From a virus: a DNA stretch of 64,000 nucleotides. The notes below the pieces were generated by a model. The model was given only the letters and a program-made list of their open reading frames with translations. It was not told the DNA's origin and did not search any database. The first letter of the stretch is position 1; the number at the start of each line of letters is the position of its first letter. A program made the position numbers and the translations under genes. Shown here piece by piece: positions 25,235-62,741 of this stretch. The stretch spans positions 19,417 to 83,416 of the IMG/VR virus record IMGVR_UViG_3300028837_004134. One strand, 5' to 3'.

Positions 25235-25247
25235 GGTGACGCCTCCT

Positions 25248-25901
25248 CTATGAATAATAATACCATTCCGGCCTTACCCGCACAGGGCGGTGCAAGCTAG
25301 GCGGGAACTGGCTCATAATAGCTTCAACGTTTATTTTCATCCGGTCGGAGACAGTAGCGATCTCCTCAATCAGTTCCCAATCACAAGACCGGTGCACAAG
25401 GAATTCGGCCTGTTTGCGACGCTGGCGGTCCATGTCATTCACGTTGTCAGCCCAGTACCGCTCGTAGACCATATCCCAATCGACCTTGTCCAGGTCAGCT
25501 AGGTCATCATACCAATCCGTATATGCTGCAATGCCGTGCCCATCCGAGAATACAAAGCCGGCTCCGCTGTTCGCTACGGCCTGGGCCGTGGACACTACGT
25601 AGATCAATGGCTCCTGGCCCTCATTGTAGCCAGCAACCTGTCCGGTCTTGAGTTGAAGGAGCATCGGCGAAAGATACCCAAAGTAGAACGCTACGTAATC
25701 GTGAACAACCCCACACGGCCCGCACCCGATTTCTCTGATGTGGCGTTCTGATTGTATGTCCACGTTGTGAATCCTCTTGTACTGCAGCCCGTCATCGGGT
25801 GTGTGGATCGGTGCGTGCAAGCCGCCGCGCTGGAGGCACACGGGGAGGCTGTCCACGTGCATAAAGCGGAATATCGGCGTTGGATTCGGCACCGCCATCA
25901 C
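25248..25901 (-). CDS. darT: DarT DNA ADP-ribosyltransferase toxin (DUF4433)
   Basis: HDYVAFYF..SPML, FVFSDGH, RRKQAEFLV, PEWYY; adjacent to darG. Confidence 0.92.
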   Translation of the reverse strand: MMAVPNPTPIFRFMHVDSLPVCLQRGGLHAPIHTPDDGLQYKRIHNVDIQSERHIREIGCGPCGVVHDYVAFYFGYLSPMLLQLKTGQVAGYNEGQEPLIYVVSTAQAVANSGAGFVFSDGHGIAAYTDWYDDLADLDKVDWDMVYERYWADNVNDMDRQRRKQAEFLVHRSCDWELIEEIATVSDRMKINVEAIMSQFPPSLHRPVRVRPEWYYYS

Positions 25902-27190: not shown

Positions 27191-28041
27191 TTGTCGCTTC
27201 TCCTGCGTGGCTTAGCCTTGGCCTTGTCCTTCTTTACGGCCTTCACTTTCCGAGTGCCCTTTTTCGAGTGTTGTTTCTTTGTGCCTTCTTTGATTGACTT
27301 GTTGATGATCAGATCAGCAGCAGAAACCACATTAGAAACCAGTTCAATTGCTTCATTCACATCTTTATGACTGATACTTCTTGACTTGTTGCGAGCTTTC
27401 TTGCTTTGGGATAAATCACCTTCGTGGGCTATTTGATTGCGTCGCTTGGCTATTATTGTTACCTGACTCTTGAGCTTCTTAGGATCAGTCTTCATCTGTT
27501 TAGCAATAGAATCCCAGAACGAATTGACTCCAATAAGCTGAAGTGAATCAGCTATCTTATCTGGGGTTTGAAGGGACTGATAAGAAAGCTTGCGATCTAT
27601 GGCAATTCTCAACGCCTGATTTGTGCGTTTATACTTTTGTCCTGCCATGAAATCGGATACAAGAATTTTTTCGTTGAGTAAGCGATTGGAGGGATCGCAG
27701 GCTTTTGAGTGTTGAACAACATGACGAATGATCTTAGCGTGAAAATATGCATCCATTGCTGATAGCGTCATAACGAATGAAGCTCGCAATAGGTCATCAA
27801 GAGCCTCAGATGAGAAATATTCACTATCGAGTTTACTGTCATCTCGAAGAACGAGGATCATGTCTTTACTATCAATTCGTTCGATTTTGTGTCTTATAGG
27901 CCAGTGCATGAGCTTCTTGAAACTGTTACCCCAGTCTTGTCGAGTTCTTCGTTTCCTATGGTCAGTGAGCCCCCTGGCAAGTATCTGGATGTACTTAGCC
28001 CGTTCGATAGCTCTGTGAAAAGTTTCCTTAGCGCCGTTCAT
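27187..28041 (-). CDS. HEPN-domain protein (putative RNase)
   Basis: LLRASFVMTLSAMDAYFH and RRNQIAHEGD (Rx4H); lower GC; coupled to hsdM and hsdS. Confidence 0.8.
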   Translation of the reverse strand: MNGAKETFHRAIERAKYIQILARGLTDHRKRRTRQDWGNSFKKLMHWPIRHKIERIDSKDMILVLRDDSKLDSEYFSSEALDDLLRASFVMTLSAMDAYFHAKIIRHVVQHSKACDPSNRLLNEKILVSDFMAGQKYKRTNQALRIAIDRKLSYQSLQTPDKIADSLQLIGVNSFWDSIAKQMKTDPKKLKSQVTIIAKRRNQIAHEGDLSQSKKARNKSRSISHKDVNEAIELVSNVVSAADLIINKSIKEGTKKQHSKKGTRKVKAVKKDKAKAKPRRRSDK

Positions 28042-43598: not shown

Positions 43599-43673
43599 GA
43601 TCGGATATTGTGTTTGATCTCGTGCTCTGAAGTGTTATCATATATTTTGGTATGGAGATTAAGGGAAGAGACT

Positions 43674-43898
43674 ATGAGTTTCTATATCTATGAAAACTGG
43701 ACTGCAGAAAACAAAGCAGTTATTCATCAGGGAAGTTGTGGTAACTGCAACCACGGACAAGGCTGTCACCCAAATCCCCTGGGTAAGAAAAATGGTCAAT
43801 GGCTCGGTCCATGTAATTCCCTGGCTGATGCACGAAGAGAAGCAAGAGCCACTGGAAGGCCGGTTCGAGAACATCGTTGCGTACGGAAAAGAGTATAG
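43674..43898 (+). CDS. Small Cys/His-rich protein (putative Zn-binding)
   Basis: IHQGSCGNCNHGQG..GQWLGP..EHRC; purine-rich SD. Confidence 0.65.
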   Translation: MSFYIYENWTAENKAVIHQGSCGNCNHGQGCHPNPLGKKNGQWLGPCNSLADARREARATGRPVREHRCVRKRV

Positions 43899-43929
43899 TG
43901 GCTCAATACCAAGACAAAGCCACGGACAT

Positions 43930-44103
43930 TCTTTCCAGTGCCGCGAACGCCCCTGGCGTGACGCCGGCATGGCCATCGAAAGCGAAACCACCCTCTCCGA
44001 TCAGGAACGCGGCAAGGAATGGGAATACCGCGTCATCGCTGTCAATCCGCCACGGCGGACCGGCGAAGGCGAACCCAACAACACCGTCATGGCGGTGCTG
44101 TAA
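43930..44103 (+). pseudogene. 3' remnant of a fibronectin type III protein
   Basis: QERGKEWEYRVIAVN..GEGEPNNTVMAVL* without its own start. Confidence 0.6.
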
Positions 44104-44205
44104 TGAAACAGAAGTTGGCCGGATGGACGATCTGGGAAGACTCCGAGACTTCCTGAATCGAATAACGGGCGTCTCCATACCTAAAGGTTAGCGGAGTAAC
44201 TCCAC

Positions 44206-47187
44206 ATGAGGCTGACTCGTTCTCAGTTTTACGTGTTGCTGCTTGCGATTCTGACTGTGGCTGTTGGGGCCATGACCAACGTCGCCACAGGTCAGATGCC
44301 AACTTGGCTTCAGCCTTACCTGTGGCTATCGTGGCCCATTTTGGGCGTGCTTGTTGTCCTCTTCATTATTCTTAGTGTACACCAGATCCATCAAAAGGAA
44401 CCCGAGCCCCCGCACCCCTCCGAGCCAGAACCGCTAATCCGAGAGCGCAGAAACGAAAGGAGGGCGCTGCGCAACTACCTTGAGCAACTCATTGAAGAGC
44501 ACAAGTATTTTACTTTTCTTAGACGAGCGAAACCCCTTGATCTTGAGAGAATCTACATCGCCTTGAGGGTTGGAGAATACGTGCCACGGCAACTTCAACC
44601 AGATGAACCCATGCAGACTGTGTCGGGGAAATTGCCTTGCCAGCGCTCAGGCACAGTGGAGGTGCCTGAGGCGCTTCGGCTGCACCGTCGTTTGGCAGTG
44701 CTCGGTGAGCCAGGCGGCGGCAAGACGACGCTGCTAAAATATCTCGCCCTACGCGTCGCTAGGCGAGACCCTGCCTTAAGTGAGTACGCCCGTGAGAGAG
44801 TGTTCAACTGGCTCCCCCGTTTGGCAGATCGCATTCACGGGCGTTTAGCCATAGTAAATGTCGGTTGCGTCGTTGAGTTGTGTGGTCCTGTTGCCCTGGG
44901 TTTCTGGATCTGGGGGCTGTTCCATTCTCCGCATCCACTGTTCGCGGTGCTGTTAGGACTCGTTCTGCTCGTCATGCCGCTGCTTATTTTCCTCAGGGCC
45001 TCAAGAATTCTCACGGCGCTGAGCATTGGGCTGTTAATGTATTACTCTTTGGCAGGGCTTGTGCCGTTATTGGCCGTCGGGGCGATGGCGGTCCCCCTGA
45101 TAATGGCGTTCTATCCCTTCTGGATTCAGCCCCCTCTGGCAGTGCTGAAGTGGCTTCGAGAGCGTTCGACACGCTATCCGCTGCCATTGCATCTGACTCT
45201 GAATGACCTAGCCGAGAGTGATGAACTCCTAGAAGTGCACCTAACAAGGACGCTACTGGAAGCGGGGTTCGCTCGTCCCCAGCGGTTTCTCCAGCGAAAG
45301 TTGGATAGGGGAGAGTGCCTTATCCTCTTGGATGCTCTGGACGAAGTGGTGGACGAAGCGGCCTATCGCCGGGTCGCAAAGGAAATCAACCGCTTCGCCC
45401 TTGCCTATCACCGCAACCAGATTATCGTGACCTGTAGGATTGCCAGTTTTCGGGGTTTGCTTCAGGGCTTTCTTCAGTTAGAGGTGCAGGAGTTAAACGA
45501 GAAGCAGGTGGCACTCTTTACTAGGAACTGGTTCGCCGATAGCCCACCCGAGGAGCAGGAAACCAGAGTGGACGGACTGTTGCGCTGTCTGGGGCGCAGC
45601 CCTCGGATGCGGGTGCTGACGAGTAATCCTCTTCTCCTATCCATCATAGCCCTGCTCTACGAGAATAAACTCACCCTGCCCGAGAGGCGTGTGGAACTAT
45701 ACGAGGAGTGCGCGCAAGTCCTGCTGAAGGAATTAGAACGTCTGAAGGGACTGGATACCGAGGCGCGTTTTCCCCCAGAGAAGAAGAGGAGTACGCTTCA
45801 GTCTGTTGCCACCCACTTCCACGAAAAAGGTGTTCGCATCTTCACCGAAGAGGCGCTCCTGACTGCCCTTGCAGAGGTGCTGCCCAGCCTTGGTTATCCC
45901 GGCACGCACAAAAGGGAGTTCCTCAAGGAGATTATGGGGCGCAGCGGCTTGCTTAGGCAGAAGTCCCGAACCTCCTACGACTTCGCCCATCTGACTTTTC
46001 AGGAGTTTTTCACGGCCGCTGCCTTCAACGAGAAGGGAGATGCTGAGTCGCTTCTCACACATTTGAATGACCCCTGGTGGCGTGAGGTTATCTTGTTGTT
46101 CGTGGGGCTTCTGGGCGATGCCACTCAACTCCTTGAGAGGTTGAAAAGGCACGACGTCCTGCTGGGGGCTGCTGCCCTTGCCGATGCCCGCCCTGTGCAT
46201 ACAGAGCCCTTTGAGAGGGTTGCTGGCAAGATTATCGCTGAGCTAACGCACTTAATGGAGGAGGATTCACAGCGCTGCCAAGAGGCTGCCGATGCCCTTG
46301 CCGAAATAGCCCGATGGGGCGCGACTGAATATCTGGTTCAGAAAGTACGTGCCGAGGGACAGCCGCCCATCGCGCTGGCAGCCGTTATAGGACTAACACG
46401 GGCAGCGGATAGAGAAGTGCTCGACCATCTTTTAGACCCACTGGGACCCATCCTGCGCCTGCTTAATGGCAGTCTGGGGCGATTCAATGCTGCGATGGAC
46501 GAGCGCATCCTGTTACCCTTAGAGACCATTGATTTCCCTATGATCTTTGTTTCAGCAGGAGAGTTCTTGATAGACTTCCAAGCATCCAATAAGCGACAGG
46601 TACATTTGGATGATTACTGGATTGATAAGTATCCAGTAACCAATGCCCAGTTTCAGCGGTTTGTGAGCGAGTCAGGTTATCAAGCACAAGGGGACTGGCG
46701 AAAAGCGTCCATCCCAGGCAAGGAAAATCATCCGGTCGTCAATGTGAGCTGGCATGATGCTGTCGCATTCTGCAAGTGGGCAGGCAAGAGCCTTCCGACC
46801 GAGGCACAGTGGGAGAAGGCTGCTCATGGCACCGATGGTCGACACTACCCATGGGGAAATCAAGAGGATAGAACCCGATGCAACTTGTCGTTGCGGGGCA
46901 CGACCCCAGTTGATCAGTATCCTAGCGGCGTTAGCCCCTGCGGGTGCCACGATATAGAAGGTAATGTCCGGGAATGGTGTGCTATGAATTCTTACCATTA
47001 CTCGTCTGATTCCGACCGTGCCGGACCTACCCAAGAGACAAAGCGTGTGTTGCGTAGTGGGTCGTGGGACTACAGGCGCGAGGCGGCTTTATGCCCCACC
47101 CTCTATGCGCGGGCAGACCCTGAGACTTGGAACCGTGATTGGGGTTTTCGGTGTGCAGTGTCGCATGTTCCTCAGGCAGGAAGTTGA
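44206..47187 (+). CDS. NACHT NTPase with TM helices, HEAT-like repeats and C-terminal FGE/SUMF1 domain
   Basis: GEPGGGKTT, LILLDALDE, VTCR, NPLLL, FAHLTFQEFF, WWREVI; YPVTNAQF..HPVVNVSW..LPTEAQWEKAA..GFRC. Confidence 0.9.
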   Translation: MRLTRSQFYVLLLAILTVAVGAMTNVATGQMPTWLQPYLWLSWPILGVLVVLFIILSVHQIHQKEPEPPHPSEPEPLIRERRNERRALRNYLEQLIEEHKYFTFLRRAKPLDLERIYIALRVGEYVPRQLQPDEPMQTVSGKLPCQRSGTVEVPEALRLHRRLAVLGEPGGGKTTLLKYLALRVARRDPALSEYARERVFNWLPRLADRIHGRLAIVNVGCVVELCGPVALGFWIWGLFHSPHPLFAVLLGLVLLVMPLLIFLRASRILTALSIGLLMYYSLAGLVPLLAVGAMAVPLIMAFYPFWIQPPLAVLKWLRERSTRYPLPLHLTLNDLAESDELLEVHLTRTLLEAGFARPQRFLQRKLDRGECLILLDALDEVVDEAAYRRVAKEINRFALAYHRNQIIVTCRIASFRGLLQGFLQLEVQELNEKQVALFTRNWFADSPPEEQETRVDGLLRCLGRSPRMRVLTSNPLLLSIIALLYENKLTLPERRVELYEECAQVLLKELERLKGLDTEARFPPEKKRSTLQSVATHFHEKGVRIFTEEALLTALAEVLPSLGYPGTHKREFLKEIMGRSGLLRQKSRTSYDFAHLTFQEFFTAAAFNEKGDAESLLTHLNDPWWREVILLFVGLLGDATQLLERLKRHDVLLGAAALADARPVHTEPFERVAGKIIAELTHLMEEDSQRCQEAADALAEIARWGATEYLVQKVRAEGQPPIALAAVIGLTRAADREVLDHLLDPLGPILRLLNGSLGRFNAAMDERILLPLETIDFPMIFVSAGEFLIDFQASNKRQVHLDDYWIDKYPVTNAQFQRFVSESGYQAQGDWRKASIPGKENHPVVNVSWHDAVAFCKWAGKSLPTEAQWEKAAHGTDGRHYPWGNQEDRTRCNLSLRGTTPVDQYPSGVSPCGCHDIEGNVREWCAMNSYHYSSDSDRAGPTQETKRVLRSGSWDYRREAALCPTLYARADPETWNRDWGFRCAVSHVPQAGS

Positions 47188-47236
47188 GTTTATGAGTATG
47201 TGATCTCATGGGGAAAGATCGAATACTGTGCGCGGT

Positions 47237-49426
47237 CTACCATCTCGCTCCAGCCGGTTCGAGGAGCAGCGAGAGGAACGTCTTTCGTTCATCCTGTTTC
47301 CGCTTTCTGGCACAGTTCTGTATACCCCATTGATCGCCAATGACCACGGCGGTCTTCTTGGCCCGGGTGACACCGGTGTAAAGCAGGTTGCGGTGGTGCA
47401 TGAAGGCATGGGCCTTGTGGATCATCACCACGGCGCAGGGAAACTCTGAGCCCTGGGCCTTGTGTATCGTGAGCGCGTAAGCCAACTGCAAGTCCTGCAT
47501 GTTCGGCGAGCCCGATTCGATATCTACCGGCACGCCATCGAATTCGATGGCAATTGAACCGTCGCGGTCTATACGGATCACATTACCCATCGCGCCGTTC
47601 ATCACGCCGAGATCGTAATTGTTCCGGGTTTGGATCACCTTGTCGTGGAGCAGGAACTTCGGTCTTCGGCCCGGTTTCGGAACCGGTGCTTCAATGTCCC
47701 AGAGCTTCTTTTGGATCAATCGCTGAAGTTCTGTGTTGAGCGTTTTGGTCCCGAGCGGTCCTTTGTGGGTCGGTGTCAATACCTGGACGTCTTCTCGAAG
47801 GTCGTAACTCAGCCGTTCATTAAGTACATTTTCGAACAGCTCGAGGAGGAAGCGTTGCGCGTCCGTCTGGTCTGTGAACTGATCCACCACGTACCACGCC
47901 CGGCGGCCCGGGCCTTCTGGCTCGCTGGTCTTTCGCACCTCGCCATTCAGAATCGCGATGCTGTTTTCCTTGAGTACGCCGGCTTGCCTGACAACTTTGT
48001 CGAGAATGACCGCCGGCGCAACTCGCGATTGGACGAGGTCCCGCAGCAGGTTGCCGGGGCCTATCGGAGGGAGCTGGTTGTGGTCGCCGACCAGGACGAC
48101 AGCGGTTTTGTCCAGATTGATCGCTTGGAACAGACGCCAAGCCAAGGGGATGTCCACCATGGAGACCTCGTCAACGATAATGACATCGGCGTCGATAGGG
48201 TCTTCGGGACCTCGCGCGTACGTCTTGCCGTTGAATCCCAGGAGTCGGTGGATGGTGCTCGCGGAATATCCGACGACCTGTTCAAGTCGCTTGGCCGCCT
48301 TTCCTGTCGGGGCTGCCAGGACCACTCGAAGCTCGTGTTCCTCGAATATGTTCGTTACGGCTGAAACGGTGAAGGTCTTGCCGCTGCCGGCACCGCCGGA
48401 AACGAGGGAGATTGAGTGTCGCAACACTGTGAGCGCTGCTTCCCGCTGACCGTTGTTCAGTTGGGGAGCAGTCTTCTGCACCAGGGATTCGAGATCGTAG
48501 GTGTTGCTGAAATGAGGATTAGGTCGAGGAGCCTGCCGAAACAGAGCCGCCAAGTTCTCCTCCATCCTGCGGATGTCCGGTCTGGCGACAAAGAATCGTC
48601 CATCGTGTGCGGAGCAAGAAAGAGTGTCTTCATCGATGAGCTTACTCAATGCTTCTTCGATCCGGTCGCGGCGGTCAAGGACGTCCATGACAAGCAACGT
48701 GTTGGCCTGATCGATCAGCTCCTCGAACTCGATCCAGCAATCGCCTTGCTCCAGCGCCGTCGACACGCAATGGATGATGCCGGCGCGGATGCGGGCCGGG
48801 TCATCCTTAGCCGTTCCCATCTTGCGGGCAATCTTGTCAACCCGTTTAAACCCGAAACCGCGCACCTCGCGGACGATGATGTATGGGTCGGTCTTGAGCA
48901 GACTCAGTGCGTCATTGCCGAACTTCTTGACCAGCGTCGTCACCTGGTGATGTGTGAGCCCGTAAGCGGCCGGCCATGTGATTGCCTTGTTCGTCCGCCG
49001 CGTCTTGAGCCATTCCGCTCGGAGATTCTGTACGGCTTGGGCCGGCAACTTTGCAGCCTCGGCGATTCGTTCCGGCTCATCGGTGATTATCCGGTCGAAG
49101 TCGTGCCCGAAGTGTTCGGCGATAAGGCGCGCCTTGACCGGTCCGATGCTCCTTATTTCCGGGTGATTGGCCAGGTAGTTTGCCAGGCCGTCGGTATCCA
49201 GTTCGAGGTCATACTCCATGGCCTTGACATCGAACTGGCGACCGTACTTGGGATGCGTGGACCAACGTCCGTTTAGTACGACCTGGTCCTGCTCGCGGGC
49301 GTAGAGCCTGCCAGCGAATTGAATCTCGTCACCAGAAGGTGTTACCAGCCGACCCGCTGAGAACCGTGGGCCCGCATAGAAGACTGCATTGATCCGTCCC
49401 CGAATTGTCGTTTGAGCGTGCTTCAA
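47237..49426 (-). CDS. RecD2-like ATP-dependent DNA helicase
   Basis: HPKYGRQF, GFGFKRVD, GGAGSGKT, APTGKAA, DEVSM, GDHNQL, TIHKAQGSE, LYTGVTRA; TTG start after GAGAGG. Confidence 0.92.
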   Translation of the reverse strand: MKHAQTTIRGRINAVFYAGPRFSAGRLVTPSGDEIQFAGRLYAREQDQVVLNGRWSTHPKYGRQFDVKAMEYDLELDTDGLANYLANHPEIRSIGPVKARLIAEHFGHDFDRIITDEPERIAEAAKLPAQAVQNLRAEWLKTRRTNKAITWPAAYGLTHHQVTTLVKKFGNDALSLLKTDPYIIVREVRGFGFKRVDKIARKMGTAKDDPARIRAGIIHCVSTALEQGDCWIEFEELIDQANTLLVMDVLDRRDRIEEALSKLIDEDTLSCSAHDGRFFVARPDIRRMEENLAALFRQAPRPNPHFSNTYDLESLVQKTAPQLNNGQREAALTVLRHSISLVSGGAGSGKTFTVSAVTNIFEEHELRVVLAAPTGKAAKRLEQVVGYSASTIHRLLGFNGKTYARGPEDPIDADVIIVDEVSMVDIPLAWRLFQAINLDKTAVVLVGDHNQLPPIGPGNLLRDLVQSRVAPAVILDKVVRQAGVLKENSIAILNGEVRKTSEPEGPGRRAWYVVDQFTDQTDAQRFLLELFENVLNERLSYDLREDVQVLTPTHKGPLGTKTLNTELQRLIQKKLWDIEAPVPKPGRRPKFLLHDKVIQTRNNYDLGVMNGAMGNVIRIDRDGSIAIEFDGVPVDIESGSPNMQDLQLAYALTIHKAQGSEFPCAVVMIHKAHAFMHHRNLLYTGVTRAKKTAVVIGDQWGIQNCARKRKQDERKTFLSLLLEPAGARW

Positions 49427-49486
49427 ATAACCGCCTCTCAGCAAATCGCACAGCACAGCGCGACTCCGTGCCCATCCTTCAGTGTT

Positions 49487-49517
49487 CACATACCGGAATG
49501 ATTTGCGGACTGTCGGA
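49487..49517 (-). promoter_or_regulatory. Element sigma-type promoter motif copy 6
   Basis: TCCGAC-N15-CCGGTATGTG, 60 bp above the recD2 start. Confidence 0.65.
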
Positions 49518-50016
49518 AGGCTAGTCGGTTGGGAGAATTGGAATTGGCTTTGACTTTGAGGGACTCGAGAAGTTATATTGTTCTGAGAGAATGTGGCACG
49601 GGAATTGGAGGAGGAGTTTTGTGCCGATTCGCGTAAGACCCCATGGTGAATTGGGGGATGGAACGAAAGTGTCTGAGTGTGCATGCGTTGGCTTGCTTCT
49701 GAAGCGTTGTCGAACGGCATGTTGTGTCAGCGGGAAATGTGGGTTCTGCGTCTCATTCGGATCAATGTAGTGGTTATCGGGCTCCAGAATGGGCGCCGAA
49801 TGAACACGGTGAATGAGAGTTAACCAGGCAAAGCGTTTTGTGTATTAATGGAACAAAGAGAATCCACCTTAAATCAGCCGCAAGACTGTCCAACAAACCG
49901 GGACCACGTCTCGTGAGGATAGGAGAAACCTGACTAACGCCTTCAGCCAACCCTACAGTTGAGGCTGGAGGTGGACGGAGGTTGCTGACCACAGACCTAT
50001 GGACTTGGAGTGATCT

Positions 50017-53000
50017 ATGGAGGACGCTACAATTCTCCTTGCAGACCTTGTGGGGAGTGAGCAAGCCACTTTGAAGCGGATAGACGACGTCTTGCAGGAA
50101 TGCGGCGCATTGCCTTCGGGCGAACGATACAAGAACAGTTGGGGAGATGCCCTAGTTGCCGTGTTTGAGTCTGCATCCCAGGCACTAGACTACGCTCTCA
50201 CTATTCGAGACCGATTGCGGCAGCACGATTGGCGCCAATTGGGTATCTGTCGGCCGCCCTCAGTACGAATGGGTCTCGCCTCGGGCCCCTTGACGTGGAG
50301 ACCTGACTCCCTCCGCGACTGCCATGTGCCGGAAGGAGGGGCCTTGGTCTTAGCTGCCAGGATAGAGCCAACTGCGAGCCCAGGTGCTGTCACAGTGACC
50401 GAGACAGTCAAGGGACTCGCTGGCGAAACTGACTATTCGTACTTCGATCTCGGACAGCGTAAACTGCCCAAGCAATCTGGAACGATAAGCCTTTTCAGCG
50501 CATCTCATAGAGGAGAAGGCTTCAGTGTGGATAATCTACCTGGCTACCCACTCCAGGATGAGCAGTATTACCGTCGCCTTGAGGCGTTCCAGCGCTTCGT
50601 TTATATGTGGCTGATGTTTGACCAACTCCCTCGGGGGAGCTGGGGTCGTTCAACTCCGGGCTGGATGAACGCAGTATGGCAGGACGTACCTCATATCGTA
50701 CCGAACCCAGTGATGGATCACGAGGGCGGATTTGAAACGACAATCTTTAATCTGGAGATCCTTAGCAGGCTTCTAGGACCTGAGCGTCTCTATCAAATGC
50801 AAGGATCCAGAGCCTTCCAATACCTCCGAGAACGACATACTCCCCGGGGTTTCGGGACCCTCAGCCTTTCACGCAACGGCTATGCCGTGGAGCCTCACCC
50901 GCGCCATACGGCCCTGGTTGGATGGCTCATTGGAACCGTTCTAGGCCAGGTCGGCCATGATGTTCCGGAACTCCGCGAGTTGTTTCAGACTAGCGTCGCA
51001 GCGCTGTTCCTGGAGGCGCCCGGTGGCAGGCCCACCGCTTTGCATCTGGATCGAAACCCTCTGCTGCTATACCTGTGTGCGTGGCATGTAACCCGGGCTA
51101 TTGAGACCGCACTTTGGGAAGGTTGTTTCACGCCTGAGCAGCGCTCTCACGTGTGCGACGCATGGGAGGGGATGCGCTCGGCACTGCTTGACAGGGCATT
51201 AACCGGCCAGTATTCACGACCGGAACCTTCCCAACTACCAAGAGGTCGTTTGTCTCTGTTCCCGCTCACGATTCCGTACGGGCAATTCGTCAGGATGGAG
51301 GCCTACTCGTTGCTAACGGCAGCTCCTCTTTTGCATCAGACAATGCCAGCGAATCTCCTAGATCGCGTGCGAAAGGCAATCGAGTTCATAGTTGAAGATT
51401 ACCTATCGACTTGGTCGAAGGCGATTCGATGTGCTCACAAGGACGCGCTCCAGCCCATACATGCGAGCCCCAGTGCGTTCCTCTCAGATGACGGGAATCC
51501 CCATCCAGACCTGGGTATAGCTGCATTGCTGCTTCGTACGCTGAGGGATGCGAACCTATGTGCCTGTTTGTGGAACGATGCGCCGGCCGAAAAGGTGCTC
51601 ATCGCGCGACAGCATCTGATCGAGGATCTAACCCTACTGTTTGATCGATGGCTCGTTGCACCAGAGCTCTTTGACCTAACCCATCCAGGCATGCTTGCCT
51701 CTGCGCTTGTGCATGATCACCCAGATCTGCATGAGAAACTGATTAGCAGTTGCCGGCAGGCCGTTACGCCCCACCCTCCAACACGTCTCGCAGACAACTC
51801 CATTGAAGCAGTTCTGTCCGAACACAGGATTGCGAGAGCCATACGTGAAGTCGTTGCGAGTGACGGACTGAGTCCTGCCATTCAGATCTCTGAGTACTCC
51901 CTGCAGCGCCTCCTCTTAGATAGGTTGCGCCCAGGATTATACGTCGAGGAGCGGCTTGGCACCAATGGCACAATGACCGTGGCGCGCAAGACTCTGGACG
52001 TATATCAGAGGGCATCGTTTGTGCGAAGGTACAAGCACGTCTGGGAAGACAGGGCAGATCGGACTACTCTCGCACTCTTCATGAGCCTATTGCCTTCCGC
52101 TGGATGCATACTGGATGTCGGTTGTGGTGTGGGACAATACGCGGCTGAGATGGTCCGCGATGGTCATCGAGTGGATCTTCTCGATGGTTCTTCTCCTCTG
52201 CTGTCGATTGCGCGTGATCGAGTACGAGCTGCTTCTGGGGCTAGCTTCGAGTGTTTTAATGTAGACATCCTAAATGAAACCTCGCGAAGTCACGTGCCGG
52301 CGTCGCCTAAATACGATGCCATCTGGTGCAGTGGTACCCTTGCACACGTTCCACAAAACGTACAGAAAACGGTGCTGCTGTGGCTAAAGGACCTAGTCAA
52401 GGATGGCGGAAAGTTGTTCCTCAGTACACCCATACGGGATTCACGGGTTATTGCACGTGACGGTCGGTTCTATGCATACATCGAGTCAACTGATCGGCTA
52501 CGAGAACTGGCAGTCGAGAGTGGATTTCGCGTTGACTACGCACTTGAGAAGGAGGAGTTCACCAACACATACGGTGAACCGAAACTCACTTCCAAGTGGG
52601 CCAACCTCTACTGCACCAAGAAGGCGGTTGAGGCAGCGGGAGGTCGCGCTGAGCTTGAAGTCGCGCTGACGCGCCAAGCATATGGTCAGTCTGCTTCCGA
52701 TTTCTTTGAAGTGCACGTCAGGCGTGCAGGGGACTCAAGGCGTCAGCGAGTCCTGGACTCTTACATAGACAAGACGTTGTCTCTGATTCCATCAGTGAAG
52801 AGGCCGACGATTCTCGATGCTGGTTGTGGTGCAGGTGACTATCTCTTCGAAATGGCTCGGCGCGGTTGCTCAGTAGTTGGCATAGACCTAGCTGAGGAAA
52901 TGCTTGAGTTGGCGAACGAGCGATGTGCAGAATCGATTGAGAAAGGGGATGTAGAATTACGTATGCGAGACATCCGTAACTTGCCGAATGAATGGGATGG

Positions 53001-53328
53001 GAGGTTTCAGGGCGTTCTGTGCGTCACAGCATTTCAGCATATCCCGTTGGCCAAAGATTCAGCTTTGGACGTTCTACGTGGCTTTCACAGGGTTCTGGTG
53101 CCGAGAGGAGTATTGCTCGTGGATGCACAGCTAGGTCGGGGAACGGGATTCGATCCAGATCTCCGGTTCATTCAAGGGTACGAAACACCAGGCCAACTGG
53201 AGGAGGTTTTGAAGCAGGGCGGGTTCCAGGTTATCGAGATGCCCAGATGGTCGCTAAAACGTGCCCACAATACTTACCAACGAGATACTCGTCTTGACTT
53301 TGTGCAGGCCTGGGCGAGGCGTGCTTGA
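50017..53328 (+). CDS. Fusion: class III nucleotide cyclase + alpha-helical (QW-repeat-like) domain + two class I SAM methyltransferases
   Basis: ADLVGS, NSWGDA, VRMGLASG, AARIEP; WLMFDQLPRGSWG, YLRERHTPRGFG; ILDVGCGVG and ILDAGCGAG. Confidence 0.85.
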   Translation: MEDATILLADLVGSEQATLKRIDDVLQECGALPSGERYKNSWGDALVAVFESASQALDYALTIRDRLRQHDWRQLGICRPPSVRMGLASGPLTWRPDSLRDCHVPEGGALVLAARIEPTASPGAVTVTETVKGLAGETDYSYFDLGQRKLPKQSGTISLFSASHRGEGFSVDNLPGYPLQDEQYYRRLEAFQRFVYMWLMFDQLPRGSWGRSTPGWMNAVWQDVPHIVPNPVMDHEGGFETTIFNLEILSRLLGPERLYQMQGSRAFQYLRERHTPRGFGTLSLSRNGYAVEPHPRHTALVGWLIGTVLGQVGHDVPELRELFQTSVAALFLEAPGGRPTALHLDRNPLLLYLCAWHVTRAIETALWEGCFTPEQRSHVCDAWEGMRSALLDRALTGQYSRPEPSQLPRGRLSLFPLTIPYGQFVRMEAYSLLTAAPLLHQTMPANLLDRVRKAIEFIVEDYLSTWSKAIRCAHKDALQPIHASPSAFLSDDGNPHPDLGIAALLLRTLRDANLCACLWNDAPAEKVLIARQHLIEDLTLLFDRWLVAPELFDLTHPGMLASALVHDHPDLHEKLISSCRQAVTPHPPTRLADNSIEAVLSEHRIARAIREVVASDGLSPAIQISEYSLQRLLLDRLRPGLYVEERLGTNGTMTVARKTLDVYQRASFVRRYKHVWEDRADRTTLALFMSLLPSAGCILDVGCGVGQYAAEMVRDGHRVDLLDGSSPLLSIARDRVRAASGASFECFNVDILNETSRSHVPASPKYDAIWCSGTLAHVPQNVQKTVLLWLKDLVKDGGKLFLSTPIRDSRVIARDGRFYAYIESTDRLRELAVESGFRVDYALEKEEFTNTYGEPKLTSKWANLYCTKKAVEAAGGRAELEVALTRQAYGQSASDFFEVHVRRAGDSRRQRVLDSYIDKTLSLIPSVKRPTILDAGCGAGDYLFEMARRGCSVVGIDLAEEMLELANERCAESIEKGDVELRMRDIRNLPNEWDGRFQGVLCVTAFQHIPLAKDSALDVLRGFHRVLVPRGVLLVDAQLGRGTGFDPDLRFIQGYETPGQLEEVLKQGGFQVIEMPRWSLKRAHNTYQRDTRLDFVQAWARRA

Positions 53329-53799
53329 GGAAGCGTGGACACATCGATGACATGCTACGCAGGCCCACGTGACGAGTAAGTGGACCCAGCAATCGATAGG
53401 CCCTCAGAAGATCATGGCCGCCCCTGCATCGCGAGGGTTCGCAAGGTTGCAGTGTTCACGGGCTGTGGCAAGTGTTCAAGGAGGCTCGGTAGGCGAGCTG
53501 AAGCTGGTCATTTGTGAGTAATAGCAGGTAAACGGTTCCGGTTCGATCGTCAAGGAGGTTGTTGCTACGTAGCAATCTACCGGTCGTGCTGACCATCCCG
53601 CTAAGCCGGCCGTGGTGTAGGTTCGTGCGGATCAGTATAACAGGTCTATTGAAATGCCTTTGGGTCAGGCGTTCGCATGCGCCCTAGCCAATCGGAGACA
53701 GTCGGTGTTAGAATTCCACCTTACGACGGCATACCTGTGATTCATCACTCCTCATTTAAGTATCTGCCTTCACCCTAATACAATACTCAGTGATTGCAC

Positions 53800-54297
53800 T
53801 TAACTGGGCTCTTTTTTCGAGAGGCAATTAGCCGCGGCTGACGAGAGGTGTCTGCTCCGCTGACATCCTATCAAATAGCCCTCCATAAACCGACAGGCAG
53901 CCTGCCGGTCGGAGCAGAAGAAGACCGGAATGTCGAAGTCGACGACGATGGAAAGAACGGTTCCGAGAACGGCGTTGGGGTGCGCACCAGAACGGTAACG
54001 TCCGCCGAGGATGTCGCTGAGGTTGGCCTCAACCACAATGCATGCGGCCTCATACCCGGCAAGACGCTGAAGCTCCTTCTTGAACCGTTTCCGGGAACGG
54101 ATGACGGTGGAAACGAAGTCCTCGAGGGTCTTGCGCTCCACCGCCACCGAGTCCTCGCGTCCCTCGATGGAATAGTCCCCGGCGGGGAGAGCCTGGCGGA
54201 TGACCGCCACGCATTGGGGATCGAAGGCGTAAGGCTCCTGTTCCCGCGTGTCGACGACGACGGTGATCCGGTCCTCGTCAGAACGGCGCGAGAGCAT
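53800..54297 (-). CDS. ERCC4-domain nuclease
   Basis: VVDTREQ..LPAGDYS..VERKTLED. Confidence 0.9.
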   Translation of the reverse strand: MLSRRSDEDRITVVVDTREQEPYAFDPQCVAVIRQALPAGDYSIEGREDSVAVERKTLEDFVSTVIRSRKRFKKELQRLAGYEAACIVVEANLSDILGGRYRSGAHPNAVLGTVLSIVVDFDIPVFFCSDRQAACRFMEGYLIGCQRSRHLSSAAANCLSKKEPS

Positions 54298-54772
54298 CTT
54301 TAGCCGCCGTATCGTATTCGTCCCCGCTGTCTTCAAGCACGATGCGCCGGTTGAAGTAGACGTTTTCGTTTTCGCCCCGGGTGCGCTTGGTCACCTCGAT
54401 CTTGACGTTGAGCAACTTGTCCAGGTTGTCGGGAAGCTCGGAGAGCTTTTCGAGATCGAGCCCGCAGGTGTGCAGGTCCGTCTTGAGCCACTTGATGTTC
54501 TCGCGGGTGGCCATCACGTTGTTGCGCCACAGGAGCCTTCCCCGGAACCGTGGCGCAAGAATGCGCAGTGTCCACTTGAGCATTGGATTGCCCGAGGTCT
54601 GCGCCCGGGTCAGTTCCACTCGCTCGACGTTCACCTGGTACTTGCCGTCGGGAATCGGTTCGAACTCCCGATCTTCGACTTCAGCTTACGCGAAATCGTC
54701 GTCGAACTGCGCAAGGTCGATCTCGTTAGTACCGCGAGGTTTACCGAGATACTCATCGCTTTCATACGGCAA
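54278..54772 (-). pseudogene. DUF669 (SSB-like) gene with in-frame stop
   Basis: DLAQFDDDFA*AEVEDREFEPIPDGKYQV..SGNPMLKW; TAA at 54686-54688; TTG start after GGAGGAG. Confidence 0.75.
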
Positions 54773-54800
54773 GCTCTACTCCTCCATCTAAGGAGTTTAC

Positions 54801-55127
54801 TTACTCGCAGGCACGGGCTTCTTCTTCTGTCCATCCCCCGGCACCGACCGCACGACCCTCTCCGATCCGTTCGACCTTGAATGCCTCTTCACCGAACTCA
54901 CGGGAGAGGAACCCGGTGAAAATCCTGGCGATAGCGCGTCCGACATCGGTCGCCGCGTCCACCACGCAGGAGCGCTTTTTCGAGTCCAGGCAGAAGGACG
55001 CATCAAGGCGCATCAGGGAGCGACCGTGCAGGCTTTCGGCGGCAAGTACCGCCAGTAGCAGGGATTCCTCGACGTCCTGGATCGGGACCTTGGAATCGAA
55101 GTTGTATCGGTAGAGTTCTCGCTTCAT
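54801..55127 (-). CDS. Conserved element hypothetical protein
   Basis: Paralog of 4820-5134. Confidence 0.8.
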   Translation of the reverse strand: MKRELYRYNFDSKVPIQDVEESLLLAVLAAESLHGRSLMRLDASFCLDSKKRSCVVDAATDVGRAIARIFTGFLSREFGEEAFKVERIGEGRAVGAGGWTEEEARACE

Positions 55128-59883: not shown

Positions 59884-60342
59884 CTATTGCTGAGACCGGG
59901 AGCGATCGAAGACCAGCTTTTCCCACTTCTTGCGCTGGCGGTGCCAGTGAGGGACGGCGGCGATGGGACGGACGTCTCTCTCCTTAATCGGATCACGGCC
60001 CGTGGTCGTCCGAGGGAGAAACAGGATTTCCTCTTGGATGTCCGGTGCGAGGTTCAAGAGACTCATGATTTGCGTGATGCGGGCACGTGTCACGTAACCC
60101 AGGCGGGCGAGATCGGCATAGTCACTCACCTCGTTGTTGCGGATCAGGCCGGCGAACCGAATCGCCAGTGCCATCAGTCTTGAGAGGCGAGGCACATTGC
60201 CGGCCTCGACCTTCCGCCTTTCAGAATCCGGCTCTAAGGCCCGTTTCACCCTGGACTGGTTCCCGCTCTTAGGTCGGAAGGTCCAGGTCACGTCCAGACC
60301 ATTGGAACCGGGATCGCTTTCTGTCAAGTCGTTATGTTTCAT
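59884..60342 (-). CDS. Recombinase-associated small protein
   Basis: Paralog of 8889-9338. Confidence 0.8.
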   Translation of the reverse strand: MKHNDLTESDPGSNGLDVTWTFRPKSGNQSRVKRALEPDSERRKVEAGNVPRLSRLMALAIRFAGLIRNNEVSDYADLARLGYVTRARITQIMSLLNLAPDIQEEILFLPRTTTGRDPIKERDVRPIAAVPHWHRQRKKWEKLVFDRSRSQQ

Positions 60343-61946
60343 CGTAGTTCCTCCCCGTTGGACTGGCCTTTCTTTTCGCAGAGTGCCTTGATACCTAGCG
60401 ACCGGAAAGTCACCTTGACGCTGCCGTCTCTGCCGTCATATCCGATCCGTTCGATAAGTAGTTTGATGATCCGTGATTGCTCCCGAGAGTTTAGGGACTC
60501 CCAAACCGGCTTGAAGGCCGACAAAGACTGGGCTATGTCCTCTTCGTCTACTGCCTCTCTCTGCAGTGTGATGATCTCCTCTTCGATCTCTGTCATCCGC
60601 TGTTCGGCGCTACGAATCTGGTCCTGGAGATCGGCCAGTTGGTCAATCGCGGGGCTATCGACTGAAATCCCCGCCGGTTCCCCGATAAGCTTCCGCAGTC
60701 TTAGATGTAGACGCCGAATTTGCGTCTTCTGGATACGTCGTTCTCGGTTCAGGTCCGCCAGGCGGCTTTCCGTCTTTGCTCGAACCCGCTTCACCGTCTC
60801 TGCAATGATCTCCTGGTTGGAGCCAATCCCCTGAATATGTTCCACGAGGAACGACTCAATATCCTGGGCGTTGATCGATTTCGATGGGCACGCCGACCAC
60901 CCTCGTTGTTGAGCATTCAGGCAAACATAGTAGCGGTAGCGCCTGTTCTTTTTGGCGGTGTAAGTGTGCATCATGGCGGTACCGCAGGGGGTGCAATAGA
61001 GTAGTCCTCTGAGAATCGCTCCGTGCTTGCTGGGCATATTCGTCCCGCCGTTGCGAGCATTCTTCCGCAACAGGTCCCGGACTTGCTGCCACCGGACCTC
61101 ACTGATAATCTGTTCATGCTCTCCGGGATAAACCGAATCCTTGTATCGCACCTTTCCAGTATAGACGACATTTGTGAGCAGACGGAAGAGGCTGTTCTTG
61201 GTAAACGGCTTGCCCCCGCGTTCATGTCCTTTCTTCGTGACCCAGTGTTTGGTACGCCAGTCACGTCGATTGAGTTCCTGCACGACTGCGAGTAGTCTCT
61301 CATGCTCAAGATACAAGTCGAAAATCGCACGAACCCGTTCCGCTTCCTCGAGGTTGACAACAAGTCGACCAGCTTGTGAGTCAACATCATAGCCCAACAC
61401 CGGCATTCCCCCGGTCCATTTGCCCTTCTTCCGCGATGCCGATATCTTGTCGCGCGTACGCTCGGAGATGATCTCCCGCTCGAACTGCGCGAAGGACAGC
61501 AGGATGTTGAGGGTTAGGCGTCCCATAGAACTGGTAGTGTTGAACTGCTGGGTGACCGAGACGAAACTCACATCGTGCTTGTCGAAAAGCTCCATGATAC
61601 GAGAGAAGTCGAGAAGCGAGCGACTCAGACGATCAACCTTGTAGACCACCACACAATCGATCTCTCCTCCCTCAATGTCGGAGATGAGTCGATTGAGCGC
61701 CGGGCGTTCCATATTGCCGCCGGTGAAGCCGCCGTCATTGTAAGCATCGGGTTGACAAACCCAACCTTCATGCTGTTGGCTCTTGATGAACGATTCGGCC
61801 GACTCCCGCTGGGCGTCCAAGCTGTTGAACTCCTGGTCGAGCCCTTCATCTGTGGATTTACGAGTATATATCGCGCAGCGCACGGTTCCGTTGTCGCTCC
61901 GGCACAAGTTTTCTGATAGGGTATAGGCCTTGCTTCCTGAATTCAT
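60339..61946 (-). CDS. Large serine recombinase
   Basis: YTRKST and other motifs as in 9335-10942; both 535 aa. Confidence 0.95.
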   Translation of the reverse strand: MNSGSKAYTLSENLCRSDNGTVRCAIYTRKSTDEGLDQEFNSLDAQRESAESFIKSQQHEGWVCQPDAYNDGGFTGGNMERPALNRLISDIEGGEIDCVVVYKVDRLSRSLLDFSRIMELFDKHDVSFVSVTQQFNTTSSMGRLTLNILLSFAQFEREIISERTRDKISASRKKGKWTGGMPVLGYDVDSQAGRLVVNLEEAERVRAIFDLYLEHERLLAVVQELNRRDWRTKHWVTKKGHERGGKPFTKNSLFRLLTNVVYTGKVRYKDSVYPGEHEQIISEVRWQQVRDLLRKNARNGGTNMPSKHGAILRGLLYCTPCGTAMMHTYTAKKNRRYRYYVCLNAQQRGWSACPSKSINAQDIESFLVEHIQGIGSNQEIIAETVKRVRAKTESRLADLNRERRIQKTQIRRLHLRLRKLIGEPAGISVDSPAIDQLADLQDQIRSAEQRMTEIEEEIITLQREAVDEEDIAQSLSAFKPVWESLNSREQSRIIKLLIERIGYDGRDGSVKVTFRSLGIKALCEKKGQSNGEELR

Positions 61947-62488
61947 TCTCGTTGATCCGCCCTCTTGGTTTCGCGGTTCGTGTTGTCAGATGCTTTCTGT
62001 CTGGTGAGCCCGAAGAAAACGAAACCATTCCACTTGTTTCCCGTTACCTCGCGTGCAATAGCACTGAGTGACCTGAAACGGCGATCTTCGTACTCGAAGC
62101 CTTCGTCAAGGACCTTGACCACGACCGTCTTATCCTTGAACTCCCGCACGAGAAGCGTGCCCGGTAAAGGCAGACGGGAATCGCGGGAGGGGTCGAGCCG
62201 TCCGCCTATCGTCCTGCTGCGCATCTCGGCAGATCCGTACTTGTATGGATCGCGCGGAGTGCGGATTCTCAGGTCAGCGTCATTGGCTAATTCTTCGGCC
62301 CGGCAGCGCGCCCGTTCGGAAAGGTCGCCTTCCGACAAGGATTGCAGTCGCCAGGCGATACGTTTCCGCAGGAATTCCTTGTGGTAGGAACGTGTTTCCT
62401 CGCCGAACACATCGAGGTACTTTTCCTTGAGTTCGCCAACGGTCATCCTGCCTAATGCCTGGATCTCCTTGTAAGTCTCAGCGTTCAT
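61943..62488 (-). CDS. DUF2924 family protein
   Basis: Paralog of 10939-11484. Confidence 0.9.
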   Translation of the reverse strand: MNAETYKEIQALGRMTVGELKEKYLDVFGEETRSYHKEFLRKRIAWRLQSLSEGDLSERARCRAEELANDADLRIRTPRDPYKYGSAEMRSRTIGGRLDPSRDSRLPLPGTLLVREFKDKTVVVKVLDEGFEYEDRRFRSLSAIAREVTGNKWNGFVFFGLTRQKASDNTNRETKRADQRE

Positions 62489-62513
62489 ATTCAAACCTCC
62501 ATTCTTCGAAGCG

Positions 62514-62741
62514 TTAAGTTGCTTCTGAATGATGGCTTCGGCGGCCCGAACTATCAAGGCAATTCTCCGTAACCGGCTCAGATTCTTCGACTTGCGCCAC
62601 ATCGGCAACGCTCACTGAATGCTCAGATGATACCGACTGACGTTTCGACTTGAGATGTCTGAAACTACTTCTGGCTAGGATCGAAGCGATCTCTGTTACG
62701 ACCTCCTCGGGTTCCGTTGGTAGGTTATCATCATTGTCCAT
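62514..62741 (-). CDS. Small hypothetical protein
   Basis: Paralog of 11539-11742. Confidence 0.55.
   Translation of the reverse strand: MDNDDNLPTEPEEVVTEIASILARSSFRHLKSKRQSVSSEHSVSVADVAQVEESEPVTENCLDSSGRRSHHSEAT

What the first reader, a model, noticed from the sequence alone, without database searches (positions are those of the whole stretch)
50017..53328. Single-gene cyclase - alpha/alpha barrel - double methyltransferase fusion
Seen: a class III cyclase with both metal-binding Asp and the Arg, but Asn at the K/E base-specificity position (NSWGD) and Val for the catalytic Asn (VLAAR); a ~450-aa helical domain with QW-like motifs reminiscent of prenyltransferase/terpene-cyclase barrels; two tandem SAM MTase domains. 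It is a lone antisense insert between ERCC4 and recD2. Known: Pycsar uses class III cyclases with altered specificity for antiphage signalling. Inference: a self-contained enzyme making or modifying a non-canonical nucleotide signal, possibly defensive.
Basis: partly seen in the sequence, partly recalled or inferred. Interest (0 to 1): 0.8.

Follow-up and report, generated by a model that had tools for sequence, protein, structure and literature searches.

The report
Cyclase-headed barrel-methyltransferase candidate immune protein
This intact 1103-residue gene belongs to a very rare, unnamed protein family in which a terpene-cyclase-like helical barrel plus one or two methyltransferases is fused to interchangeable "warhead" domains (here a divergent nucleotide cyclase, in relatives TIR, caspase-like, trypsin and others). 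That pattern, and its place among defence genes on a mobile element, suggest an undescribed anti-phage protein.

Summary
ORF 50017-53328 (+) encodes 1103 aa with four domains:
- a class III cyclase fold (Z 20 to CyaB). D10, D44 and R115 are kept, N40 sits at the Lys position and V111 at the Asn position.
- an (alpha/alpha)6 barrel (AF2 pLDDT 92). Squalene-hopene and other class II terpene cyclases come top by fold (Z 16.5). There is no sequence-level family and no DxDD motif.
- two paralogous small-molecule-type SAM methyltransferases.

It is not a chance fusion. There are 17 full-length homologues at 30-45% identity, but only 57 clusters among 1.84 billion representatives.

The main new result is that barrel + methyltransferase is the constant core and the N-terminal head is swappable. 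Heads seen are cyclase, TIR, CHAT, trypsin, Metallophos, EAD11, kinase-like TCAD9 and wHTH. The cyclase metal residues are lost in two of the four relatives that add TIR or trypsin in front of it.

The gene lies in the variable cargo region of one of two tandem integrative elements, which also carry DarTG, type I R-M and NACHT-FGE genes.

My best reading (about 0.5) is a new single-chain sensor-effector conflict protein with a cyclase output. It is not Pycsar. The core's ligand and methyl acceptor are unknown.

The parts
50017..53328 (+). Whole ORF, 1103 aa (P0001), monocistronic. It has 296 nt of non-coding sequence upstream and 471 nt downstream.
   Evidence: the 1103-aa form is on record on 11 contigs
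50007..50010 (+). GGAG ribosome-binding site, 6 nt before the ATG at 50017
   Evidence: read directly from the sequence
50017..50532 (+). Residues 1-172: divergent class III nucleotide cyclase domain (the head). D10 (50044-50046) and D44 (50146-50148) are the metal ligands. N40 is at the Lys position, V111 at the Asn position, and R115 (50359-50361) is kept.
50542..51996 (+). Residues 176-660: (alpha/alpha)6 barrel of a new sequence family plus a helical tail (about 576-660). Family-wide conserved polar residues include D202, E236, E240, R296-H297-T298, Y421 and D543. There is no DxDD and no CGEQ motif.
52009..52656 (+). Residues 665-880: class I SAM methyltransferase 1 (LDVGCGVG at 699-706, acidic D723). 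This domain is optional in the family.
52669..53325 (+). Residues 885-1103: class I SAM methyltransferase 2 (LDAGCGAG at 933-940, D957). At least one MTase domain follows the barrel in every member long enough to judge; the census HMMs label it MT2 in the closer members and MT1-like in the distant ones. It is a paralogue of MTase 1 (26% identity, E 2e-11).
43645..54858 (.). Variable cargo region of integrative element copy 2. It lies between backbone blocks shared with copy 1 and holds NACHT-FGE (+), recD2 (-), this gene (+) and ERCC4 (-).
   Evidence: blastn of the two copies; tblastn; Pfam

Best explanation
The gene encodes a soluble single-chain member of an undescribed, very rare family of modular conflict (most likely anti-phage) proteins.

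Constant core: a squalene-hopene-cyclase-like (alpha/alpha)6 barrel followed by one or two small-molecule-type SAM methyltransferases. I read this core as the sensing or switch module. The barrel's highly conserved polar pocket (D202, R296-H297, Y421, D543) binds a conserved small ligand, and the methyltransferases bind SAM and probably methylate that ligand or a bound target.

Variable part: the N-terminal head, which I read as the output. Here it is a divergent class III nucleotide cyclase that keeps the two metal-binding Asp and the transition-state Arg. On activation, presumably through ligand-driven self-association (class III cyclases, TIR, CHAT and trypsin heads all work through induced proximity), it would convert an NTP of unknown identity into a cyclic or otherwise altered nucleotide. 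That product would act either as a signal or as a drain on NTPs.

Shown: the domain anatomy, the residues, the family and its head swapping, and the cargo-region context. Inferred: the defence role, the sensor/output assignment, activation by oligomerisation, and catalytic activity of the head.
For: (1) Head swapping on a constant core. Members combine barrel and MTase(s) with cyclase (12 or more), TIR (P0031, P0041, P0045, P0050, P0056; C-terminal in P0030), CHAT (P0053, P0063), trypsin (P0014), Metallophos (P0027), EAD11 (P0024), APH/TCAD9 kinase-like (about 10), wHTH (P0010) or no head. EAD11 is an effector-recruiting adaptor.

(2) Published precedent. cNMP cyclase, trypsin, caspase and TIR share one effector slot in conflict systems, and trypsin-cyclase coupling is described (PMC7159879; PMC8195603).

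(3) Cyclase residues. D10, D44 and R115 are kept in nearly all members where the cyclase is the only head (R115 is Glu in P0015 and P0017), but are lost in trypsin-prefixed P0014 and TIR-prefixed P0019. This fits a catalytic head that becomes dispensable.

(4) Context. The gene sits in the 11-kb variable region of one of two tandem integrative elements. The record also carries DarT/DarG (E 8e-63 and 6.5e-137), type I R-M and two NACHT-FGE proteins. In L082 the family gene lies next to an integrase-like ORF, judged by eye from its N-terminal sequence; PADLOC found nothing for it and no Pfam scan was run. In L085 it lies near a PbeA/type IV restriction-like helicase.

(5) Folds. The cyclase matches at Z 20.2 and the barrel at Z 16.5 to 1gsz. 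ESM-feature neighbours are all SQHop_cyclase, Prenyltrans or TED clusters.

(6) Conservation. The barrel is the most conserved domain (44% mean identity, 17% invariant) and the head the least (35%, 8%).
Against: There is no experimental datum. No PADLOC model matches except a generic MTase match to mad2. Only 7 homologue neighbourhoods could be read, and most show no defence genes.

A strongly conserved barrel pocket and intact small-molecule MTases look like an enzyme rather than a typical fast-evolving phage sensor. The head lacks the canonical Lys/Glu and Asn in the whole family and is below Pfam's threshold, so it may only bind a nucleotide. No receptor for a cyclic nucleotide is encoded nearby.
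Confidence: 0.5

Rival explanations
1. One reading: a self-contained pathway enzyme. The cyclase makes a non-canonical cyclic nucleotide, and the barrel and the two methyltransferases then bind and methylate it to give a modified signal.
For: All activities lie in one polypeptide. The metal Asp pair and the Arg are kept. MTase 2's best PDB relative is a sugar O-methyltransferase (6uv6, E 1.3e-9). A Metallophos (phosphodiesterase-type) gene follows the homologue in L082 and L085.
Against: The barrel + MTase core is conserved with TIR, CHAT, trypsin, Metallophos, EAD11 or kinase-like heads and with no head. P0014 and P0019 keep the core with a dead cyclase, and P0014 still has the Metallophos neighbour. 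No receptor is encoded.
Confidence: 0.1
2. A metabolic or tailoring enzyme with no immune role. The barrel binds a terpenoid, lipid or glycan that the tandem methyltransferases methylate stepwise (as in phosphoethanolamine N-methyltransferase), and the head merely regulates it.
For: The nearest folds are enzymes: class II terpene cyclases and glycoside hydrolases. The barrel is the most conserved part, with an invariant polar constellation. The MTases resemble UbiG, GNMT, PEAMT and glucose O-MTase.
Against: TIR, CHAT, trypsin and EAD11 heads are hallmarks of conflict systems, not of metabolism (PMC7159879). No biosynthetic neighbours were recognised next to the homologues in the readable loci; the neighbours that were scanned are Metallophos genes, an ETF subunit and orphans without a family. 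The family is extremely rare and patchy. The catalytic DxDD motif of class II terpene cyclases is absent. This copy is cargo in a mobile-element hotspot.
Confidence: 0.2
3. A tool of the mobile element itself (counter-defence or host or helper-phage manipulation). For example, it could methylate or sequester a host immune signal while raising cNMP to reprogramme the host.
For: The gene is carried by an integrative element with terminase and primase genes. Elements and phages are known to carry signal-degrading or signal-sequestering proteins (from my own knowledge).
Against: No member was found in IMG/VR contigs other than this record, in 50,697 phage records or in plasmids. In several loci the scanned neighbours carry no phage or mobile-element hallmark (e.g. 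L086 beside ETF genes). Cell-killing heads (TIR, CHAT) fit suicide immunity better.
Confidence: 0.1

Closest known systems
cNMP-cyclase, trypsin, caspase and TIR effector heads of NTP-dependent conflict systems (Kaur, Burroughs, Iyer and Aravind 2020, PMC7159879; 2021, PMC8195603)
   Same: The same set of interchangeable N-terminal heads occurs here, including the trypsin-cyclase pair (P0014), EAD adaptors (P0024) and TCAD9 (P0043 and others). Inactive cyclase versions occur in both.
   Different: Those systems are built on STAND, MoxR or vWA NTPase switches. Here no NTPase is present, and the constant core is a barrel plus SAM methyltransferases. Neither paper mentions such a core ('methyltransferase' occurs 0 times in the 2020 text).
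Pycsar (PycC pyrimidine cyclase plus cNMP-binding effector; from my own knowledge, Tal et al. 2021)
   Same: A class III-type cyclase with non-canonical base-specifying residues, in a defence context.
   Different: There is no cNMP-binding effector gene in the 83 kb. No PADLOC cyclase model matched at E <= 0.01. The cyclase is fused to a 930-aa core that Pycsar lacks.
Class III adenylyl cyclases: CyaB 3r5g, Rv1900c 1ybt, Ma1120, 3mr7
   Same: The fold matches (Z 19-20, rmsd 2.1-2.5 A). Both metal Asp and the Arg are present. Like Rv1900c, it has Asn at the Lys position and a non-Asn residue at the Asn position.
   Different: Identity is only 20-28%. The domain is below Pfam's gathering score. 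V/I/A replaces the Asn throughout the family.
Class II terpene cyclases (squalene-hopene cyclase 1gsz, drimenyl diphosphate synthase 8zg0, ent-CPP synthase 5bp8, MstE 6sbb)
   Same: The (alpha/alpha)6 barrel fold matches, Z 14.5-16.5 over 254-284 residues. G-rich and aromatic loop motifs are present (DQLPxGSWG, EGGFE, GFG). ESM-feature neighbours are SQHop_cyclase, Prenyltrans and TED clusters.
   Different: There is no sequence-level relation (Pfam none at E <= 10; profile against PDB none at E <= 10). No DxDD motif is present. The Z-scores are tied with GH105, GH8 and GH15 barrels.
Tandem small-molecule methyltransferases such as phosphoethanolamine N-methyltransferase (5wp5), and UbiG or glucose O-MTase
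   Same: There are two paralogous class I MTase domains in tandem with intact SAM motifs. The PDB matches are all small-molecule MTases.
   Different: Identity is low and the acceptor is unknown. The first MTase is dispensable in part of the family.
MADS mad2 (PADLOC PDLC04134)
   Same: Both MTase domains match positions 280-433 of the mad2 profile (E 3e-32).
   Different: The match covers the generic MTase fold only. The eight-gene mad1-8 operon (PMC13662399) is absent.

Membership tests
Class III nucleotidyl cyclase (CHD, PF00211) | Cyclase homology domain fold | tested here: met
   Foldseek E 1.9e-10. VIA Z 20.2, rmsd 2.3 A over 163 residues to 3r5g. Model pLDDT 89.8.
Class III nucleotidyl cyclase (CHD, PF00211) | Sequence score above Pfam's gathering threshold | tested here: not met
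   13.1 bits against 21.9. No match by six-frame search at E <= 1. phmmer against PDB nevertheless gives class III cyclases almost exclusively (11 of 12 rows), best E 2e-4.
Class III nucleotidyl cyclase (CHD, PF00211) | Two metal-binding Asp and the transition-state Arg | tested here: met
   D10, D44 and R115 align with the corresponding residues of 3mr7 and 1ybt. They are conserved in nearly all cyclase-only members; R115 is Glu in P0015 and P0017.
Class III nucleotidyl cyclase (CHD, PF00211) | Base-specifying Lys/Glu and catalytic Asn | tested here: not met
   N40 aligns with the Lys of 3mr7, and V111 with its Asn. Family-wide these positions are N/D/S and V/I/A. Rv1900c, solved as an adenylyl cyclase, also departs at both positions, so this does not prove inactivity.
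Class III nucleotidyl cyclase (CHD, PF00211) | Cyclase activity | not testable with these tools
   Needs an NTP turnover assay.
Pycsar | Partner effector with a cNMP-binding domain | tested here: not met
   PF00027 is absent from the whole 83-kb record, while the controls were positive. The gene is monocistronic.
Pycsar | Cyclase recognised by defence-system models | tested here: not met
   PADLOC scan at E <= 0.01 returned only mad2 on the MTase part.
Class II terpene cyclase / squalene-hopene cyclase | (alpha/alpha)6 barrel fold | tested here: met
   Z 16.5 to 1gsz, 16.1 to 8zg0 and 15.4 to 5bp8. These are tied with GH barrels.
Class II terpene cyclase / squalene-hopene cyclase | Catalytic DxDD motif and Pfam SQHop_cyclase or Prenyltrans match | tested here: not met
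   There is no D.DD anywhere in the protein. There is no Pfam hit at E <= 10 and no PDB profile hit at E <= 10.
Thioester (TED) domain of alpha-2-macroglobulin / complement | CGEQ thioester motif | tested here: not met
   Motif absent. There is only a weak fold match to C4 and an ESM-feature lead.
Class I SAM-dependent methyltransferase | Rossmann-like fold with GxGxG and an acidic residue after beta-2, in both domains | tested here: met
   Pfam Methyltransf_25 E 7.1e-33 with two stretches. The motifs are LDVGCGVG 699-706 with D723, and LDAGCGAG 933-940 with D957. They are invariant in the family.
MADS (methylation-associated defence system) | mad1-mad8 operon | tested here: not met
   There is only a generic MTase match to mad2. 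No neighbouring mad genes at meaningful scores.
NTP-dependent conflict systems (STAND / MoxR-vWA ternary) | NTPase switch module in the protein or operon | tested here: not met
   There is no P-loop or AAA domain in P0001. The neighbouring NACHT-FGE gene is not conserved next to homologues.

The most novel reading that the evidence does not exclude
The barrel + methyltransferase core may be a SAM-dependent immune switch that takes the place of the NTPase switch of NLR/STAND-type proteins. One version is a guard that fires its head when a phage SAM lyase depletes SAM, which would complement the SAM-dependent type I R-M on the same element. The other version is a sensor that recognises an invader-derived or self small molecule in the terpene-cyclase-like pocket and reads out its methylation state.
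Probability: 0.15. Interest if true: 0.9.

Novelty: new variant of a known kind. Interest (0 to 1): 0.68.

Why it matters
Modular immune proteins with swappable TIR, caspase or cyclase heads are known. Every described sensor or switch core, however, is an NTPase, a repeat array or a nucleic-acid-binding module. Here the conserved core is a terpene-cyclase-like barrel with an invariant polar pocket plus SAM methyltransferases, which points to small-molecule or methylation-based sensing in anti-phage immunity. That logic has not been tested. The family also offers natural controls: the same core occurs with an easily assayed TIR or CHAT head. Finally, the head is a class III cyclase lineage that has lost the canonical Lys and Asn yet keeps its metal site, so its substrate and product may be new.

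Tried and rejected
- The single genome-contig scan was swamped by generic methyltransferases through the LDxGCGxGD pattern and gave no family member. It says nothing about occurrence in isolate genomes.
- No family members were found in IMG/VR other than this record, in 50,697 phage records or in PLSDB plasmids.
- The genome search could not draw relatives for a virus record or reach the metagenome records.
- Complex prediction of two copies of the cyclase domain returned no verdict (score 0.00). This is not evidence either way.
- A profile of the barrel alone (A4) against all PDB sequences gave no hit at E <= 10.
- Foldseek against PDB reached only E 3e-3, and Foldseek against BFVD viral models gave nothing meaningful.
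- Pfam and NCBIfam on the barrel alone gave only noise.
- The cyclase domain searched against longer proteins gave only one outside hit, a class 3 adenylate cyclase with TPRs (P0069, E 5.6e-6).
- Rfam and tRNA scans of the window were empty.
- The promoter and terminator scans were no better than shuffles.
- Literature searches for this architecture returned nothing relevant.
- Run X11 (an RNA library) holds one 238-nt contig at 50163-50400. It spans the M85 alternative start but does not prove transcription.
- I considered a functional link to recD2, ERCC4 or NACHT-FGE and rejected it. None of these recurs next to homologues.
Full report
**What is there**

The ORF at 50017..53328 on the + strand is open for 1103 codons. 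A GGAG at 50007-50010 lies 6 nt before the ATG. One database gene call starts at M85 (P0002, 1019 aa). The 1103-aa form is also on record, on 11 contigs from several sources. Residues 1-84 are conserved in homologues and are needed for the predicted fold, so M1 is the start.

The gene is monocistronic. It has 296 nt of spacer upstream and 471 nt downstream, runs divergent from recD2 (47237-49720, -) and converges on ERCC4 (53800-54336, -). No transmembrane segment is evident.

**Head (residues 1-172)**

Pfam's cyclase model is below threshold (13.1 against 21.9 bits). NCBIfam matches the cyclase part of LipJ at E 1e-6. phmmer against PDB returns class III cyclases almost exclusively (3mr7 E 2e-4, Rv1900c E 2e-3, Ma1120, CyaB).

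The AF2 model (pLDDT 89.8) matches class III cyclases at Foldseek E about 1e-10. VIA gives Z 20.2 with rmsd 2.3 A over 163 residues to CyaB.

In the printed alignments, D10 and D44 sit on the metal-binding Asp, R115 on the Arg, N40 on the Lys of 3mr7, and V111 on its Asn. Rv1900c, a solved adenylyl cyclase, also has Asn and a non-Asn residue at these two places.

**Barrel (residues 176-660)**

No sequence family was found. A profile of eight barrel segments finds nothing in PDB at E <= 10.

AF2 is confident (pLDDT 92.4, pTM 0.93) and gives an (alpha/alpha)6 barrel with a helical tail. Foldseek finds only six-hairpin barrels, at E 3e-3 or worse. VIA puts squalene-hopene cyclase first (Z 16.5), followed by drimenyl diphosphate synthase, ent-CPP synthase, Rv3377c, MstE and oxidosqualene cyclase. 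GH105, GH8 and GH15 barrels lie within one Z unit. ESM-feature neighbours are all SQHop_cyclase, Prenyltrans or TED clusters, at lead-level scores of 0.81-0.84.

The DxDD acid motif of class II terpene cyclases and the CGEQ thioester motif are absent. Family-wide conserved polar residues (D202, E236, E240, R296-H297-T298, Y421, D543) suggest a defined pocket.

'Terpene-cyclase-like barrel' is therefore right at fold level only.

**Methyltransferases**

There are two class I SAM MTase domains (Pfam E 7e-33, two stretches) with intact GxGxG and acidic motifs. They are paralogues of each other (26% identity, E 2e-11). They resemble small-molecule MTases (UbiG, GNMT, glucose O-MTase, PEAMT) and not DNA MTases. 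The PADLOC mad2 match (E 3e-32) covers only this generic fold.

**The family**

Seventeen full-length homologues at 30-45% identity exist, so the fusion is not accidental. The family is very rare. phmmer of the barrel against 1.84 billion representatives gives 57 proteins, 31 of them below 1e-10. The sources name them only 'methyltransferase domain-containing protein' or 'UbiE'.

A census with Pfam and family-specific HMMs shows that at least one MTase follows the barrel in every member long enough to judge. The N-terminal head varies:
- cyclase: 12 or more members
- TIR: P0031, P0041, P0045, P0050, P0056 (C-terminal in P0030)
- CHAT: P0053, P0063
- Metallophos: P0027
- EAD11: P0024
- APH/TCAD9 kinase-like: about ten members
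- no head: P0016, P0029, P0058

In some members TIR (P0012, P0019, P0023), trypsin (P0014) or wHTH (P0010) is added in front of the cyclase.

D10, D44 and R115 are kept in nearly all members where the cyclase is the only head (R115 is Glu in P0015 and P0017). Both Asp are lost in P0014 and P0019.

Among ten cyclase-headed members the barrel is the most conserved domain (44% mean identity, 17% invariant columns). The head is the least conserved (35%, 8%).

**Reading of the architecture**

Kaur et al. describe cNMP cyclase, trypsin, caspase and TIR as interchangeable signalling or effector heads of conflict systems. They also describe trypsin-cyclase coupling, inactive cyclase versions and EAD adaptors that recruit effectors (PMC7159879; PMC8195603). 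The present family uses the same set of heads on a core that those papers do not mention and that contains no NTPase.

I therefore take barrel + MTase as the sensing or switch module and the head as the output.

A Metallophos gene follows the homologue directly in 2 of 7 metagenome loci (L082, L085) and resembles the PADLOC candidate PDC-S10. One of these two homologues (P0014) has a dead cyclase, and in P0027 Metallophos occupies the head slot. It is therefore more likely a further effector than a signal-degrading partner.

**Context**

The window is part of an 83-kb IMG/VR provirus record. It contains two tandem, related integrative elements. Their serine recombinases are 86% identical, and their backbone blocks are 73-89% identical at the DNA level. 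The elements carry terminase, primase and D12 methylase genes.

Between the primase block and the next shared block, copy 2 has an 11.2-kb region (43645-54858) with no counterpart in copy 1. It holds NACHT-FGE, recD2, this gene and ERCC4. recD2 and ERCC4 have no homologue in copy 1. Copy 1 carries a different cargo there, including a Metallophos-NACHT-FGE protein.

The same record also carries a type I R-M system with DarT/DarG nested in it. No cNMP-binding gene is present.

The DNA recurs at 99% identity or more in marine-sediment and sponge metagenomes (a subsurface run, X5, holds it too but may be the source sample). T9SS sorting and BACON domains in neighbouring genes, and a Bacteroidota MAG homologue, hint at a Bacteroidota host. 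That host assignment is an inference.

**Verdict**

The gene is best described as a cyclase-headed member of a new, rare barrel-methyltransferase family of probable immune proteins. The defence role, the trigger, the methyl acceptor and the cyclase product remain inferred or unknown.

No sequence likeness to the present barrel was found, so kinship is untested.

Noticed in passing
window 19450-30059 (-): A type I R-M operon (HsdR 19450-22452, HsdS 25898-27190, HsdM 28038-30059) has a complete DarTG toxin-antitoxin defence pair nested inside it: DarG 24182-25234 (E 6.5e-137) and DarT 25248-25901 (E 8e-63). An IrrE/M78 peptidase gene also sits inside, at 22943-24085.
   Followed up: partly
window 9335-11490 and 60339-62608; G000:C1:1-31000 against window 31344-62583: Two tandem, related integrative elements are present. 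Their serine recombinases are 86% identical, each has a DUF2924 partner, and their backbone blocks are 73-89% identical. The cargo between the primase block and the next block differs completely between the two.
   Followed up: partly
window 44206-47187 (+) and G000:C1:12957-16472: A NACHT + FGE-sulfatase STAND protein (993 aa) lies in the same cargo region. Copy 1 carries a 26%-identical relative with a Metallophos head (1189-aa frame) in its own cargo region.
   Followed up: partly
L082:11787-12683 (+); L085:296-1216 (-): A Metallophos phosphoesterase gene lies directly downstream of the family member in two metagenome loci, overlapping its stop in L085. It resembles the PADLOC candidate PDC-S10 (E 1e-11 to 1e-13). 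The same domain is fused as the head in P0027.
   Followed up: partly
P0012 (alignment A1, columns about 960-1050 and about 1590-1680): The TIR-headed homologue P0012 carries two near-identical copies of an inserted module of about 85 aa (NDVSGI..EG.NLIIVA.VNNV..FRIFDGDGKVVVDTDEK...). One copy is inside the barrel and one is inside MTase 2. The nature of this module is unknown.
   Followed up: no
L088:2975-7906 (-); L084:3950-4921 (+): Orphan proteins of 1643 aa and 323 aa, with no Pfam or PADLOC match, lie directly downstream of family members. They may be further partners.
   Followed up: no
window 50017-50268: One public gene call (P0002) starts at M85 and so cuts the cyclase domain in half. 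Annotations based on it would miss the head.
   Followed up: yes
window 1-3177 (-) and 12530-15253 (-): Large proteins with viral BACON_2/beta-helix domains and with fn3 plus a T9SS C-terminal sorting domain lie inside the record. They hint at a Bacteroidota host.
   Followed up: no
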